From Trypanosoma brucei (Eukaryota): a stretch of 64,000 nucleotides of DNA. Shown piece by piece: positions 12,001 through 18,000 of this stretch. Every line of letters starts with the position of its first letter. Position 1 is the first letter of the stretch. The position numbers were made by a program. Location: positions 64,001-128,000 of the forward strand of contig CM000207.1 of NCBI GenBank assembly GCA_000002445.1, given 5' to 3'.

Positions 12001-15000
12001 CCGTAGAATAGTATAGATTAGAGAGTATATTGTGATATAATACAAGAGGAGGAGGAGATTGCTCTACATATTTCGCACAGGAATGAACAGGATCAACACT
12101 GTAGATGACTTAGCTGAAGTTTTTAATGCGAATACAGCAACCGTTAATAACCTATAACTTCTAATAGAATCTACTTATAGAGTATTGAAGTCTATTCTAT
12201 GGAAGTAGCGATAGACAGCGATAAGAAATGTGGGGGAAGGGTAGGTAGTTTTGATTATATTTCTGAGATTGTAATCCAAAGCGTAAATAAGCGTAAGTTA
12301 ATTAGAGATCAAAAGGTCTTCAAACTGGAGGCTGCCGCCAAACATTATTTCCCTAACAATACCAATGATGGCAGAGCAAAGCCATGCGCCCAATAAGAAA
12401 TATCAAATAACAGTTTCGAGATCAAAGAGTAAAGAATAAAACAGAAATGTAGTGATTCAATTTTTGAAATTGTCTCTACCAAAGCAACCATCAGAAGCCA
12501 CTTCCATAGATCGAATTGCAATAGCAGCTAATTCAACTCTATTTTTTTTAAATTTTCTTCGTGCCTTCGTGGGAGTTTCCCCCACTGGCGCGGCCATCAA
12601 CCATCACCGTAGAGCCCTGAGATGCTATCGGTCTGGCGACTGTGGTAGAGTCTCCCTTTTTTATTCAGCCTAACACACCCTTTATAATTTTTGTTGTAGT
12701 TCCGCATATGAACGGAATACAGCAGATGGGGCGAGAAGCCTCCCACTCCGGACTCTCCCAAAGATGTCAATTAGCAATCCTTTTGTTTTGATTTTTGTTA
12801 TTCGTTTATTATTCTCTTCTCCCTCTTTCTGTTTCTGTTGCTTGTTGATTGCATACCCCCTTTGTCTGTGAGGGTGTCTGGACTATTCCTGCATCCGGTG
12901 CTTTTCCTGCTGGCTCCACACTCGGCAATAAGGGGGGAAGTTGCAGAAGGGAGAGTGGGTTGTATGACTGTTACATTAGGTGAGGACTTCACCTGCGGCC
13001 GGCTCCGTTCAACCGCAATGAGAAACTGCGCCAGCCTTTTAGAGAAACATACATCCTGAACACTCCCCTTCTACCGCAAACCTGACATGTAACTCCTTCA
13101 AACCGGGGCAGCTCATCAAGTGCAGCGACGTTTCTTCGCAGTCGCCGCGTTGGCTGGTAACAGCGCGCTCTACCTCCATACCGTGCATCTTCTTTTGATG
13201 TAGGGTGAGGCCAGTTTTGCTAGCACACTTCCTTCCGCATGTCGGGCACACCAACATGGATGTGTTTGTATGCGAGGAATCAGTGGCACACAATTTTGTG
13301 CTTTTGCTGCATTTAAGCTCGGCTCCCTCACCTTTGTGGAAAGCCTTACAGTGTCGGATGAGGGAGTCCCTGCAACTGAGCACTTTTTGGCACACACCAC
13401 ACTGCACCTCTCCTCTCCCCGGGACGTCAACGTTTCCCTCACGGGCACGCTTACGAGGGAATTGCACCAACACCACGGTACCTTCCTCCGTCACTATGCT
13501 TTTATGTTTGAATTTCTTGTGTAGTGACAGGGAAGAACGCGTACCGAAGCTCGCCTCACACAGGTCACATTGAAACGGCAGCTTCCGTGTATCCTGAGAG
13601 GCTGGCACTGCTGGGACGCTACCATCTCCTTGCACTGAGTCCTCGTTCTCTCGCCCCCTTTTCACGCGGCAACTACCGCTACCTATGCCATGTATTGTTC
13701 TAAGGTGGTGTAATAGTCGGCCTTGCACTGCGAATTTGGAGGCACAGAGGGTACAATGAAGCAACTGCGGTCTCATCGGGACTCGTGTGTTCGATGGTAG
13801 AGGAACGATCGCCACCACTGGAGGGGGCTCCGGGGGGATATCCACTGCAGGTGTTGCATCGCCGTATTTGATCCTCCGGAGGGCATCAGCTCGCACAAAG
13901 CCATGTTTGTTTACCATGTGCGTTACAGCACTCGAGCGGCATTGGTATGCGGCATCACATTCCGTACATTTTGTCGGTTCGGAGGTTCTCTGAAGAGTGC
14001 GTGTCGCAACAGGTGGGGCCTTTTGTATTGTTGGTCCTATCGGTGCATGTTTCTGGTTGCACCATCGGCACTGTGGAGGCACAATCGGGTTGATCTTTCG
14101 CAACATCCATCCATAGTGTCTTAAAGACACAACCCGAAAGCGTGCCAGTGCCGTTTCTTCTTCCCTCGTCAGTTCTTCTTTATGTTTTGTTGGAAAGTGG
14201 TTGCCCGTGATACCAAACCTATGAGTGTTCTCATGGACTTCTTCCGACCTAAGCACTCGCTTCGCATAAGCAATGATGTTGGGGATCCATGTGTCTCGCA
14301 ACTGTGGTAAATCTGCGGCCTTTTTCGCCATTTTATCACAAACCTCATTCCGTTTCACGCTACAATGGCCAAGCACAAATTGCAGTCGGATACGCAACTT
14401 CCTTCTCTGAACTTGAAGCAGAAGCCTCCATAGTCGTCTCAGAATTGGGTCCGTTACGGTAGGGGGCCTGTCTGTAGTGCTGTTAACATTGACAGCGAGT
14501 AAGAGAAGATGGACAACCTGCTCGGTGTGCTTCTGTATGCCAGAAACCATTTCAGCAGCCGTTGCAGTCCTATCTCTAATGCTACGCATTCCGCTCTGTA
14601 ACTGCATGAGAGTTCCCCTGCTCCGGTCTTGGGTGCACAAATCAGCGTGTTGTTTCTATGGAGCATGGCAGCTGCTCCGGACTTCTCACCGAGGGCCACG
14701 GATCCATCAGTCCACAATTCGTAGTGCTCTCGTCGCGATGGCTCCTTCCCCCTCCGTGCAAAATGCCGTACAAACCATTTTTTGGAAGCCTCCCTTTTAA
14801 CATCGTCAGGGTCATCAGCGCACACAGGCTTTACCTGCGTGTGAAATAGCGGTCGGCAGCTGTGGCGGAGCGTCGATGTCTCTAGTGGGTGCTCGCGTGG
14901 CTCAATGTGGAGGTGGGGGTAGGACCGCATGATGCGGGAATGTAGGGCTCTGACTGGGTGTTTGCTGTGGTATACTTCCTCAGCACTGTGCCGCAAACAT

Positions 15001-18000
15001 CCGCCTCGTGACTCACACATCAGCATGAATTTCATACTGCCCACAAGAGTGGCCGTCTTGAGTGGCAGGAGGTTTTCTTCCAGCAGAGAGTCCTCTTTGC
15101 GCGTCCCATGCGGTATGCCAGCTATGATTCGACTGGCTTTGTGTTGTGCTGCTGCAAGGAGGTCGCGACTTCGTTTCGAAGCGTCTCAGTACCATACCTC
15201 ACTGCCATACATGGGGTGTGCCTCTACGAGTGCTAGATAAAAAGCTCTCAGTACTTGTCGTCTTGGCCCCCATGTAGAAGTTGAGATGGCTGCTATCTGC
15301 AGTAGTCGGAAGTCCATCTTGCGTCTCGTTTCGGCCGCATGTGTTGCCATCCCTTGCAGACACTGGAATGTTACTCCTAGAAGCTTCGGTGTCCTGTCAG
15401 CTCCTATTCTTTCGCCGTTCAGTTGTAATGTAAGGGAGTGGCGCTCTATACACCCGAAGAGTGTGCACTTTGTTTTCGCTACGTTGACATACATGAAGTA
15501 CTCTTTTGACCACTGTAACACCACGTTTAGGCCGCATTGTAGCGTGAGTTGATGACATCCCTCTCTGTGTGCCTCGCAAGTAGCGTCAGGTCGTCTGCAA
15601 AGAATCCGTGCTGCAGCAACGGCACTTCTGCAAGGAACTGGCTCAACGAGTTCATGACAATAATGAACATGATTGGGCCAAGGACAGTTCCTTGTGGCAC
15701 TCCTCGCTCAAATGTTCTGCTTCTGGAAAGCTTCTCCTTGAATCTCACTCTTCCAGTTCGGTTACTCAGAAATGATACGCACCACTTCACAATGTGGGGT
15801 GATACCTTCATTCTGTGCAATTCTCTCACAATTTTGTCGTGTTCTACTGTATCGAATGCCTTCTCGTAGTCGACGAATACAGCACCCGTACGAGATTGGT
15901 GCGTGGGACGGCAGAGGGAAGCGCGGACGTGCAGGAGTTGTTCCAGCGTTGAGCATCCGGGGCGAAAGCCTGATTGCTGCGGCGTCAGCTGGGACTCAAC
16001 AGTGTCTCTAAGTCTCGCGGCAATTATGCGCTCTATGACTTTGTAGAGACAGCTCGTGAGCGTCACAGGCCTGTAAGAATCGAGGTCCTCCGCCTTTTTT
16101 CCGGCCTTCAGGATGGGGATGATAACACCGGTCTTCCATGTAGGCGGCACGACTCCCGTTCGTAGGCTCTCATTGAATAGCATCAGAACAACATTCAGCG
16201 CTGCTCTACCGAGATGTTGCAGTGCCTCGTTGTATAAGCAATCAGGTCCGGCTGCGGATCCACTCGGTAGCAGTTTGATCGATCTCCGTAGTTCAGCCAT
16301 CGTGATGGGACTGAACTCACTCGCTATTGTCTTTATGGGTGCCGGTGGGTGTGAGTCGATGTGCCTTCTTTCTCGGGACGAGTACAGTTTACTGAACCTC
16401 TCAGCTTGACGGTAGTCCGTGATGGCCACGTAATCTACAAGTACAGCCGGTGTGGTTAGTGGTCGTGGCGCATATACCTTCTTGACAATGTGCCAACTGC
16501 AGCGGTCTGACACCGCAAGTCTGGAGCATAGCGTGCTCCATCTCTTCTTTGTGGTACGGTCCAGGATCTGCTTACGCGTGACTACCAACTTTTCCCTTCG
16601 GTGGGATGTTCCGCATCCAGCGATCTCTTCATCGAGTTTCGCGAGCTCGGGTGTCCAATGTGGTGGCGTTGCTCTGCAGCCACGGGGGACGGAGACCTTC
16701 GTCGCAATGAGGATGGCGGAGCTCAATTTCTGTTCCAGGGTGTTGACGTTCTTTTCTCTACCAATTTTCCTGCAGAGCTCGTCAACCTTGAGACGGAAAT
16801 TACTCTAGTCAGCTTTTAGCCATGCGTACATGGGCTTTCGAAGCCGCGGGCAACTCAGTGCATCTGTGTCCTCTCCAACGATAACGTCGAAAAATATGTG
16901 ATGGTGATCGCTATCGGAAGAATACAGCGATGTCCACGTGTACACTGTACAATTCCTTGACAGTGTCACATCAGGGGTGGACTCCCCATGGTGACGCGCG
17001 TATCTTGTGCACTCACCAGTGTTGCAAACCAGAAACTGGTTGTCAATGCACCACTGTGTGAGGGTTTCACCCTTGGTATTTGGTGGGCTCGCGCGATCCC
17101 ATGCCAACGCGTGTGCGTTAGCGTCTGCACCGATGAGCTGGGCACCGACAGTTGTCAGAAGCGTATCTAGGTCAGTTGCCGTGAAGGTGTGTTTTGGTGG
17201 GATGTATGCCGACGTGACGGTCAGCGCTGTTCCACGTGCAAGGTGAATTGTTGCATGCACTTGTTCAATGCGACCAACAACGGCCATACCGGTCTCGACT
17301 GGTAGGTCCTCCCTCACTAGTGTTGATACACCACCTCCTTTGCAGTTACGAGCTATTCCGTGATGTTGGTAGCCAGCAACGCTAAAGCAAGCCGCCTCTC
17401 CAGGCGTCATCCTTGTCTCGCTCAACAGACAAAAGGCGATCCGCTCATCAACAAGGGTTTTGTGGAGTGCTAATCTCTTTCCTTGAGATAGCCCGGCGCA
17501 GTTTCACTGCATCCCGCACAACGACGGGCCGGGATTCTCTTCCACATCACCGGACATCAGAATCTTAGTGCGGATGATACTGCTGATGGCACGCTGGCAC
17601 GTGCCCATGGACTGACAAATGAAAAACGGTGTCCCAGCAAGACGCTGCTGATCCCTGTGCTGTATTATGCCGTAGCAGGAGCAAAGCAGTGTTCCCTACG
17701 AGAGGAATGCTTCTGACTCTTGGCTTTTCCCGATGAGACTGGGTACTGGACCCTGGCACCATGTTGAGGTGGCCGGAATCGCCAGGGTGAAAACAATATA
17801 ATAGAGTTTGTAAAATAACTTTAAGAGTAAGAATACAAATGAAGTGCACGAAACAAAAGAAAGAAGACAAAAAATAGAAACTTTTTAACCTAAATCATAT
17901 ATGAAGTGTGATGGTAATATACGAAGTGAGGAGACGGAACGGATGGTGATTTTTTTAAAAATTCTGTTCAGGTTTTCTGGAAAGACATTAAGACTGTTGA

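What the first reader, a model, noticed from the sequence alone, without database searches (positions are those of the whole stretch)
12657..17787. A degenerate ingi/DIRE-family non-LTR retroposon on the opposite strand to the array. Its domain order is preserved but its reading frame is broken into five or more pieces.
Reading the - strand from 17787 downward gives a Pr77-like terminus, then APE endonuclease (GADANAH, SDH), then RT (FVDYEKAFD, PQGTVLGPIMF, FADD), then RNase H-like (TDGS...AECVALEIG), then at least five C2H2 fingers. The + strand shows a T-rich tract at the 3' end. The 5' 77-mer differs substantially from the canonical ingi Pr77 that I recall. This suggests a DIRE-like or old ingi copy rather than a recently active one. 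I could not recognise a target-site duplication at the junctions.
Basis: partly seen in the sequence, partly recalled or inferred. Interest (0 to 1): 0.5.

Follow-up and report, generated by a model that had tools for sequence, protein, structure and literature searches.

The report
Dead full-length ingi retroposon copy
This is an ordinary, full-length but mutationally inactivated copy of the well-known ingi retroposon of Trypanosoma brucei, sitting backwards inside a surface-antigen (VSG) gene array of the reference genome; it is not a DIRE relic and not unusually old.

Summary
The retroposon is real, on the minus strand. Its 5' end is at 17787 as reported. Its 3' end is at 12542 (an A8 tail), not 12657, giving 5246 bp. 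It aligns end to end at 94.5% nucleotide identity with a TSD-flanked ingi of T. b. equiperdum. Its two terminal ~250-bp segments match the two halves of a RIME. GC is 52.1%, against a published 52.3% for ingi and 48.7% for TbDIRE. Its first 79 nt match the published Tbingi Pr77 consensus at 70/79, against 60-77% for TbDIRE lines. So it is Tbingi proper, not DIRE.

Its private divergence (118 sites, about 2.7%) equals that of two other copies (91 and 124), so it is not especially old. One roughly 1661-codon frame (2A, APE, RT, RNase H, five C2H2 fingers) is broken by eight private lesions:
- loss of the ATG
- four TGG-to-stop changes
- two 1-nt deletions
- one 2-nt deletion

There is no target-site duplication (best match 7/12, P=0.66; both control elements score 12/12). 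The first 122 nt carry an excess of private changes. Both facts fit, but do not prove, post-insertion recombination. The window is T. b. brucei TREU927, whose retroposons are already catalogued. Already known; low interest.

The parts
12542..17787 (-). Complete Tbingi element, 5246 bp
   Evidence: End-to-end blastn alignment to L003 7045-12292 (T. b. equiperdum ingi with a perfect TSD): 94.46% identity over 5255 columns. GC is 52.1% against 40.3% for the rest of the window.
17709..17787 (-). Pr77 / '79-bp signature' (internal promoter and HDV-like ribozyme region in the family)
   Evidence: 70/79 identical to the published Tbingi consensus, against 60-77% for TbDIRE lines. It is the only Pr77 core in the window. 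The P1 pairing 1-7/31-37 is intact. P4 loses 2 of 5 pairs. The 16-29 hairpin loses 1 pair (pair assignments are my inference).
17760..17763 (-). DPE position (+25 to +28): CATG instead of the consensus CGTG
   Evidence: This DPE was shown to be essential for L1Tc Pr77 promoter activity (PMC4748587).
17541..17787 (-). 5' segment shared with RIME (RIME 5' half)
   Evidence: 89.5% identity to nt 2-245 of a TSD-flanked 499-bp RIME in L001.
17777..17779 (-). Lost start codon: ATT where the consensus and three other copies have ATG (element nt 9-11, in frame with 2A/APE)
   Evidence: That this ATG is the initiator is inferred.
17696..17698 (-). Premature stop TAG (TGG in other copies)
17525..17584 (-). 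2A-like ribosome-skipping peptide SSIIRTKILMSGDVEENPGP
   Evidence: Translation. 2A activity has been reported for T. brucei ingi (PMC3708506 abstract).
17504..17506 (-). Premature stop TGA (TGG in L003)
16895..17512 (-). AP endonuclease domain
   Evidence: Pfam Exo_endo_phos_2 at E=1.3e-14. On the repaired protein, Exo_endo_phos covers residues 90-260 and Exo_endo_phos_2 covers 187-295.
16805..16807 (-). Premature stop TAG (TGG in L003 and L001)
15366..16093 (-). Reverse transcriptase domain
   Evidence: Pfam RVT_1 at E=7e-38 on the raw ORF. On the repaired protein the match covers the full model (5-205/205) at 152.7 bits.
15546..15548 (-). 1-nt deletion (frameshift) inside the RT
   Evidence: The window lacks a base present in both L003 and L001. 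The flanking peptides FADDL and QWSK are in one frame in L001 but in different frames in the window.
15186..15188 (-). Premature stop TGA (TGG in L003 and L001)
14314..14726 (-). RNase H domain
   Evidence: Pfam RNase_H covers model positions 3-140/141 at 29.9 bits (gathering score 25.8) on the repaired protein. On the raw ORF only a partial match at 22.4 bits was found.
14460..14462 (-). 1-nt deletion (frameshift) inside RNase H
   Evidence: L003 keeps AECVA and RRLW in one frame.
13183..14070 (-). Zinc-finger region: a CxxC..H motif (14070-14047) and five C2H2 fingers (13968-13903, 13755-13690, 13569-13504, 13401-13336, 13248-13183)
   Evidence: Regex on the translation. Pfam zf-C2H2_4.
13064..13066 (-). 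2-nt deletion (frameshift) 88 codons before the ORF end
   Evidence: L003 and L001 keep HQKKMH and AQFL in one frame.
12798..12800 (-). Natural ORF stop codon TAA (end of the roughly 1661-codon repaired frame)
12542..12789 (-). 3' segment shared with RIME (RIME 3' half), ending in an A8 tail at 12549-12542
   Evidence: 94% identity to nt 253-500 of the L001 RIME. The tail is compared across copies.
11250..11810 (+). Context: a repeat block that recurs upstream of the VSG ORFs in the window (my reading: the VSG-associated 70-bp-repeat block)
   Evidence: blastn of the flank against the window finds copies at 58456-58998, 62458-62696, 54922-54984 and other sites.
18482..19879 (+). Context: an A-type VSG ORF starting 694 bp beyond the element's 5' end, on the opposite strand
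   Evidence: Pfam Trypan_glycop at E=7e-24.

Best explanation
Window 12542-17787 (minus strand) is one full-length copy (5246 bp) of Tbingi. Tbingi is the autonomous LINE-like non-LTR retroposon of Trypanosoma brucei (ingi4 subclade). The copy lies in a subtelomeric VSG array of T. b. brucei TREU927, antisense to the VSGs. It sits between a repeat block that recurs upstream of each VSG and the VSG ORF at 18482.

How the family works (established knowledge, not tested here):
1. The first 77-79 nt (Pr77) act as an internal RNA pol II promoter. In the RNA they act as an HDV-like ribozyme that trims the 5' end.
2. One long ORF is translated, beginning with a 2A ribosome-skipping peptide.
3. [quoted passage not shown]
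4. The endonuclease nicks a loosely specific target.
5. Reverse transcription is primed on the A tail.
6. A staggered second nick gives a 12-bp target-site duplication.

This copy keeps all of that anatomy in order, but it cannot make the protein. Eight lesions are private to it:
- ATG to ATT at the likely start
- four TGG-to-stop changes
- two 1-nt deletions
- one 2-nt deletion

Its promoter DPE is also altered (CGTG to CATG). It is therefore a dead, non-autonomous relic of the main, recent ingi burst, not a DIRE.

Inferred, not shown: it has no TSD, it lacks the GTxGG core of the upstream target motif, and its first ~120 nt are anomalously diverged. I therefore infer that at least one flank was exchanged after insertion, by ectopic recombination or gene conversion between ingi/RIME copies.
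For: Ends and family:
- End-to-end 94.46% identity to a TSD-flanked ingi, L003.
- 93-95% identity to further copies in L001 and L004.
- The terminal segments match the two halves of a TSD-flanked 499-bp RIME.
- The 5246-bp length matches the published 5.25 kb (RIME 5' half, 4.7-kb core, RIME 3' half; PMC2323293).
- GC is 52.1% against a published 52.3% for ingi.
- Pr77 matches the published Tbingi consensus at 70/79, which is the nearest of all the lines compared.
- RT-region protein hits are 90-94% identical to T. brucei-group proteins, 58-63% to T. theileri and T. grayi 'Tbingi protein', and 40-44% to T. vivax and T. congolense.

Anatomy: Pfam on the repaired 1661-codon frame gives Exo_endo_phos, a full RVT_1, RNase_H above its gathering score, and zf-C2H2. 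The motifs and five fingers are located. DVEENPGP is intact.

Lesions: they are private to the window copy.

Age: private substitutions number 118 for the window copy, against 91 and 124 for the other two copies. This is consistent with the K2P of about 3 for the INGI peak (PMC12278014).

Source: the VSG at 40783-42294 is exactly XP_803376.1 of TREU927.

No TSD: the best match is 7/12 (P=0.66), while both controls score 12/12.

5' anomaly: 13 private changes fall in nt 1-122 against 3.3 expected (P of about 4e-5). This is the most divergent 122-nt window of the element.
Against: For the classification: nothing substantial. The canonical 12-bp TSD is missing. The upstream ingi4 motif is only 6/10 matched, at A/T positions only, in a T-rich flank.

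For the recombination inference:
- No partner element or empty site could be searched, because no T. brucei genome collection is searchable here.
- All comparators with 5' ends come from one genome (T. b. equiperdum) plus one published consensus.
- The second most divergent 122-nt window is in the other non-coding end. Faster or more heterogeneous evolution of the untranslated ends is therefore an alternative explanation for the 5' anomaly.
- The distance from the repeat block to the VSG, minus the element, is about 1.4 kb. This is normal for cassettes in this window, so there is no sign of a gross rearrangement.
Confidence: 0.93

Rival explanations
1. It is a TbDIRE: a vestige of an extinct ingi-related family that shares only the 5' signature with ingi.
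For: The ORF is broken. The Pr77 has 9 differences from the Tbingi consensus. There is no TSD.
Against: - 94.5% nucleotide identity to ingi over all 5.25 kb, whereas DIREs are otherwise unrelated to ingi beyond the first 78-79 nt (PMC2323293).
- Both RIME halves are present.
- GC is 52.1%, not 48.7% (PMC2323293).
- Pr77 identity to TbDIRE lines is 60-77%, against 88.6% to Tbingi.
- There are only 8 lesions and about 2.7% private divergence.
Confidence: 0.01
2. It is an ordinary target-primed insertion at exactly this site, and both flanks are original. The TSD was simply never made, or was later erased: for example by an endonuclease-independent or blunt integration, or by a small deletion or several point mutations at one junction.
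For: - The 5' flank matches 6/10 positions of the ingi4 upstream motif, including all three T positions of the TSD part. Only about 3% of window positions score 6 or more.
- The flank is T-rich, as reported upstream of ingi/RIME (PMC2323293).
- The cassette spacing is normal once the element is removed.
Against: - The GTxGG core of the motif is absent, while both control elements have it.
- At about 3% divergence a 12-bp TSD should retain 11-12 matches, not 7.
- The A8 tail and the exact 5' terminus are both intact, so a junction deletion would have had to stop precisely at the element boundary.
Confidence: 0.3
3. It is a still-functional or trans-mobilisable ingi. The apparent lesions would be sequencing or assembly errors, or would be bypassed (readthrough or frameshifting).
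For: - All domains and catalytic motifs are recognisable.
- The 2A motif and P1 of the ribozyme are intact.
- RIMEs show that non-coding derivatives can be mobilised in trans (PMC3820030).
Against: - Eight independent lesions, including loss of the ATG and three frameshifts, are far too many for errors in a finished reference chromosome.
- The DPE, essential for Pr77 promoter activity in L1Tc, is mutated (PMC4748587).
- P4 and the DPE hairpin are weakened.
Confidence: 0.02

Closest known systems
Tbingi (Trypanosoma brucei ingi, ingi4 subclade of the ingi/L1Tc clade of non-LTR retroposons)
   Same: - Length 5246 bp against the published 5.25 kb.
- Pr77 at the 5' end, an A tail, and RIME-type termini.
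- A single-frame 2A-APE-RT-RNase H-C2H2 polyprotein of about 1661 codons.
- GC 52%.
- 94.5% nucleotide identity to another copy.
   Different: - This copy is non-coding (8 private lesions).
- It lacks the 12-bp TSD and the GTxGG core of the upstream target motif.
- It has CATG instead of the CGTG DPE.
- It has an excess of private changes in nt 1-122.
TbRIME (the 0.5-kb internally deleted, non-autonomous partner of ingi)
   Same: The first 247 nt and last 248 nt of the element correspond to the two halves of a RIME (89.5% and 94% identity to the L001 RIME).
   Different: RIME lacks the 4.7-kb coding core, which is present here.
TbDIRE (degenerate ingi/L1Tc-related elements)
   Same: Long (about 5 kb), carries Pr77, is non-functional, and belongs to the ingi clade.
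   Different: DIREs share only the 5' signature with ingi, are heavily mutated and have lower GC (48.7%). This element is ingi along its whole length and only lightly damaged.
L1Tc (Trypanosoma cruzi)
   Same: The same architecture and the same functional modules: Pr77 promoter and HDV-like ribozyme, 2A, APE, RT, RNase H and a C2H2 nucleic-acid chaperone. Most of the biochemistry for the clade was done on L1Tc (PMC3185411, PMC4748587).
   Different: A different subclade and host. Pr77 identity is only 57/80. The target-site motif differs (PMC3820030).

Membership tests
Tbingi (ingi4 subclade) | Element of about 5.25 kb built as RIME 5' half + 4.7-kb core + RIME 3' half | tested here: met
   5246 bp. 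nt 1-247 and 4999-5246 match the two halves of a TSD-flanked 499-bp RIME. Published structure in PMC2323293.
Tbingi (ingi4 subclade) | Nucleotide-level identity to bona fide ingi copies along the whole length | tested here: met
   94.46% over 5255 columns to L003, which has a perfect TSD. 93-95% to copies in L001 and L004.
Tbingi (ingi4 subclade) | 5' 79-bp signature (Pr77) of Tbingi type | tested here: met
   70/79 to the published Tbingi consensus, the nearest of 12 published lines. TbDIRE lines score 60-77%.
Tbingi (ingi4 subclade) | Single long ORF with the order 2A - AP endonuclease - RT - RNase H - C2H2 fingers | tested here: met
   The order and all domains are recovered on one frame of about 1661 codons once 8 private lesions are repaired. 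As it stands the ORF is broken, which rules out autonomy but not family membership.
Tbingi (ingi4 subclade) | 3' adenosine-rich tail | tested here: met
   A8 at 12549-12542, at the same position as the tails of L003 and the L001 RIME.
Tbingi (ingi4 subclade) | 12-bp target-site duplication | tested here: not met
   The best 12-mer match is 7/12, P=0.66 against shuffles. Controls L003 and the L001 RIME score 12/12. This is a feature of an undisturbed insertion event rather than of the element's sequence family.
Tbingi (ingi4 subclade) | Upstream target motif AxxxxxxxTxxxGTxGGxTxxx^xTxTxxTxxxxx (PMC3820030) | tested here: inconclusive
   6/10 positions match, all of them A/T in a T-rich flank, and the GTxGG core scores 0 of its 4 specified positions (G, T, G, G). 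L003 scores 7/10 and the RIME 10/10, both with the core. About 3% of window positions score 6 or more.
Tbingi (ingi4 subclade) | GC content of about 52%, well above the genome's 41% | tested here: met
   52.1% against 40.3% for the rest of the window. Published values in PMC2323293.
TbDIRE | Related to ingi only through the first 78-79 nt; otherwise unrelated at nucleotide level | tested here: not met
   Full-length 94.5% identity to ingi.
TbDIRE | Accumulation of very many point mutations; lower GC (48.7%) | tested here: not met
   8 ORF lesions. Private divergence is 118 of about 4400 sites, equal to other ingi copies. GC is 52.1%.
Pr77 promoter / HDV-like ribozyme (as defined on L1Tc) | DPE CGTG at +25 to +28 | tested here: not met
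   The window reads CATG. The three T. b. equiperdum comparators read TGTG or TGTT.
Pr77 promoter / HDV-like ribozyme (as defined on L1Tc) | HDV-like helices P1, P2 and P4 | tested here: inconclusive
   P1 keeps 7/7 pairs. The inferred P2 pair 11-76 changes from G-C to T-A (still paired). P4 keeps 3/5 pairs. The 16-29 hairpin keeps 3/4 pairs. The pair assignments are my inference, because the published figure is not held. Rfam gave no match at E of 1 or below in this region.
Pr77 promoter / HDV-like ribozyme (as defined on L1Tc) | Promoter and self-cleavage activity | not testable with these tools
   Needs transfection and in vitro cleavage assays.
2A ribosome-skipping peptides | C-terminal D(V/I)ExNPGP motif in frame with the downstream protein | tested here: met
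   SSIIRTKILMSGDVEENPGP at 17584-17525, in frame with the endonuclease. Activity has been reported for ingi (PMC3708506).

The most novel reading that the evidence does not exclude
The copy is a recombinant. An ectopic crossover or gene conversion between two ingi/RIME elements, with a breakpoint somewhere near element nt 120-250, joined the 5' flank and an older 5' end of one element to the body and 3' flank of another. That would make this ingi a footprint of retroposon-mediated rearrangement within a VSG array.
Probability: 0.35. Interest if true: 0.2.

Novelty: already known. Interest (0 to 1): 0.07.

Why it matters
It matters little beyond correct annotation. ingi is the textbook retroposon of T. 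brucei, and the window comes from the reference strain TREU927, whose ingi, RIME and DIRE elements have been catalogued (PMC2323293). What this check adds:
- The right boundaries (12542-17787).
- The right label (Tbingi pseudocopy, not DIRE).
- A complete list of lesions.

The only mildly interesting point is that the copy lacks a TSD and has an anomalously diverged 5' end. If that reflects recombination, it would be one more example of dispersed repeats acting as recombination substrates in the antigen-gene archive.

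Tried and rejected
- Rfam search at E of 1 or below over 12300-18100 found no match.
- Protein search with the repaired 1656-aa sequence was swamped by generic RT candidates and returned only 4 distant hits.
- Protein search with the 533-aa zinc-finger ORF returned only two T. grayi fragments. All three protein searches are therefore spent.
- L002 (T. b. gambiense) was fetched, but no ingi termini were found in it at 3 or fewer mismatches, and its file was not readable from Python. 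It was not used.
- Exact look-up of the neighbouring VSG ORF at 18482-19879 found nothing. A different VSG ORF gave the source genome.
- A search for a second ingi, RIME or Pr77 in the window found none.
- A search for paralogous empty sites for the flanks found only the upstream repeat block recurring elsewhere.
- A wider TSD search (k of 7 or more, 60 nt upstream against 600 nt downstream) gave only an 8-mer at the wrong distances.
- A 'longest open stretch' test of the indels was uninformative, because alternative frames are open there. It was replaced by a flanking-peptide frame test.
- I first took the ATG at element nt 24-26 as the start codon. I corrected this to nt 9-11 once the published consensus showed CGTG at nt 25-28.
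- The two Bringaud papers on ingi distribution and subfamilies are not held.

Full report
**Observation.** The region stands out as a GC plateau (0.51-0.53) in a window that otherwise oscillates around 0.40. On the minus strand it holds long ORFs that Pfam assigns to an endonuclease-RT family domain (Exo_endo_phos_2), RVT_1, RNase H and C2H2 fingers. There are five C2H2 fingers at 13968-13183, preceded by a CxxC..H motif. The 5' end reads CCCTGGCG at 17787.

**Exact ends.** Three loci holding related copies were fetched from T. b. equiperdum assemblies through RT-fragment proteins found.
- L003 holds a full-length copy that aligns to window 17787-12542 end to end: 94.46% identity, 5255 columns, 16 gap positions. 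That copy is flanked by a perfect AATTCTCACAATGC duplication.
- L001 holds a 499-bp RIME with a perfect 12-bp TSD. Its 5' half matches window 17787-17541 and its 3' half matches 12789-12542.

The element therefore ends at 12542 with an A8 tail (12549-12542) and is 5246 bp long. The size and the build (RIME 5' half, 4.7-kb core, RIME 3' half) are those published for ingi (PMC2323293).

**Coding anatomy.** A three-way alignment with L003 and L001, a four-way alignment of the 5' end and the published Tbingi Pr77 consensus (PMC4748587 Additional file 1) show one reading frame from an ATG at element nt 9-11 to a TAA at 12800-12798. Restoring three small deletions gives about 1661 codons.
- Exo_endo_phos and Exo_endo_phos_2 (residues 90-295)
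- a complete RVT_1 (563-805; 152.7 bits, against 130.8 bits on the raw ORF)
- RNase_H across its whole model (29.9 bits, above the gathering score)
- zf-C2H2

An intact 2A-type motif, SSIIRTKILMSGDVEENPGP, precedes the endonuclease. 2A activity has been reported for ingi (PMC3708506).

**Lesions, all private to this copy:**
- ATG to ATT at 17779-17777
- TGG to TAG at 17698-17696
- TGG to TGA at 17506-17504
- TGG to TAG at 16807-16805
- a 1-nt deletion at about 15547
- TGG to TGA at 15188-15186
- a 1-nt deletion at about 14461
- a 2-nt deletion at about 13065

. For each deletion, at least one other copy keeps the conserved peptides on both sides in one frame with no stop between them. The window copy has them in different frames. 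The ORF is thus in eight pieces, not five.

**ingi or DIRE, old or not.** DIREs share only the first 78-79 nt with ingi and are heavily mutated (PMC2323293, PMC4748587). Here:
- Identity to ingi runs the whole length of the element.
- GC is 52.1%, against published values of 52.3% for ingi, 48.7% for TbDIRE and 41% for the genome.
- The 79-mer is 70/79 identical to the Tbingi consensus but only 60-77% identical to seven TbDIRE lines.
- In the three-way comparison the window copy has 118 private substitutions, against 91 and 124 for the other two. That is about 2.7%, in line with the INGI activity peak at K2P of about 3 reported for T. brucei (PMC12278014).

It is an ordinary member of the main ingi population. 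It is dead, but neither DIRE-like nor unusually old.

**Pr77.** Relative to the published consensus the copy has G11T, G26A, C48A, A51C, G60A, G61A, C72T, C76A and T79C.
- G11T destroys the ATG.
- G26A turns the DPE from CGTG into CATG. That DPE is essential for L1Tc Pr77 promoter activity (PMC4748587). The equiperdum copies have TGTG or TGTT at the same CpG.
- On an HDV-like fold that I inferred from the general topology, P1 is intact, P4 loses two of five pairs and the 16-29 hairpin loses one. G11T and C76A would keep a P2 pair complementary. The published figure is not held, so this remains a lead only.
- Rfam gave no match in this region at E of 1 or below.

**Insertion site.**
- No TSD exists. 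The best 12-mer match between the junctions is 7/12 (P=0.66), while both control elements score 12/12. A wider k-mer search also found none.
- The published ingi4 upstream motif (PMC3820030) is matched at 6/10 positions, but only at A/T positions in a T-rich flank. The GTxGG core is absent, though both controls have it.
- The first 122 nt carry 13 private changes against 3.3 expected (P of about 4e-5). This is the most divergent 122-nt window in the W-L003 comparison. The runner-up lies in the other untranslated end.

These facts fit flank exchange by recombination or conversion between ingi/RIME copies, but they do not prove it. Partner loci cannot be searched with the collections available here.

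**Context and source.** The + strand ORFs are A- and B-type VSGs. The ORF at 40783-42294 is exactly XP_803376.1/EAN76226.1 of T. b. brucei TREU927. The element lies antisense to the array, between a repeat block at 11250-11810 that recurs upstream of other VSG ORFs in the window and the VSG at 18482-19879. I read that block as the VSG-associated 70-bp-repeat region. Without the element, the distance from the block to the VSG would be about 1.4 kb, within the 1-2.2 kb seen for other cassettes in the window. No other ingi, RIME or Pr77 is present in the window.

**Mechanism.**
- Established for the family, not tested here: Pr77-driven transcription, ribozyme trimming of the 5' end, 2A-mediated separation of a short leader, endonuclease nicking at a loosely specific site, target-primed reverse transcription from the A tail, and a 12-bp staggered second nick.
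- Shown here: all sequence modules for this are present in order, and none of the proteins can be made from this copy.
- Inferred: the promoter is impaired, and the flanks were disturbed after insertion.

**Verdict.** This is a known element in a reference genome whose retroposons have been catalogued (PMC2323293). The finding is real but ordinary. It needs a corrected boundary and label.

Noticed in passing
window 17666-17787: The first 122 nt of the element carry 13 changes private to this copy, against 3.3 expected from its element-wide rate (P of about 4e-5). It is the most divergent 122-nt window of the element. C>A and G>T changes make up 8 of the 17 private changes in the first 247 nt, against 26 of 118 elsewhere (P=0.04).
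   Followed up: partly
window 17777 and 17712 (element nt 11 and 76): G11T and C76A would convert a G-C pair to T-A in a plausible P2 helix of the HDV-like ribozyme, which would be a possible compensatory pair. The register is my own inference, and the published structure figure is not available.
   Followed up: partly
window 17696-17698, 17504-17506, 16805-16807, 15186-15188: All four premature stops arose from TGG (Trp) codons by G>A transitions. G>A (30) and C>T (26) dominate the 118 private substitutions.
   Followed up: partly
window 40783-42294 (+): This 503-aa VSG ORF is identical to XP_803376.1 / EAN76226.1, 'VSG, atypical, putative', of T. b. brucei TREU927. That identifies the window's source. 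Four other VSG-like ORFs tried (1553-2365, 18482-19879, 28406-29365, 56955-58475) are not in the protein collection as exact sequences, which suggests they may not be annotated with those exact gene boundaries.
   Followed up: partly
window about 14625-14678; L001 about 9622-9634; L004 about 8976-8988: The ingi copies in L001 and L004 (T. b. equiperdum CM010677.1) share a gap of about 54 nt (18 codons, in frame) relative to the window copy and L003. This may be a subfamily marker or a shared deletion among locally duplicated copies.
   Followed up: no
L004 6116-17262 and L001 7261-13443 (adjacent stretches of T. b. equiperdum CM010677.1): A roughly 25-kb cluster of several full and partial ingi copies in both orientations, plus a RIME. 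Some fragments abut one another, so this is either a rearranged retroposon nest or an assembly artefact.
   Followed up: no
window 11250-11810 and about ten other sites (for example 58456-58998, 62458-62696, 54922-54984, 6189-6298): A diverged AT-rich repeat block (66-90% identity between copies) recurs upstream of the VSG ORFs, giving the window its GC periodicity of about 3-5 kb. I read it as the VSG-associated 70-bp-repeat region. Tandem Repeats Finder does not report a ~70-bp-period array in 10500-20500, the only stretch scanned (it lists only two short repeats of 12- and 14-nt period), because these copies are too degenerate.
   Followed up: partly
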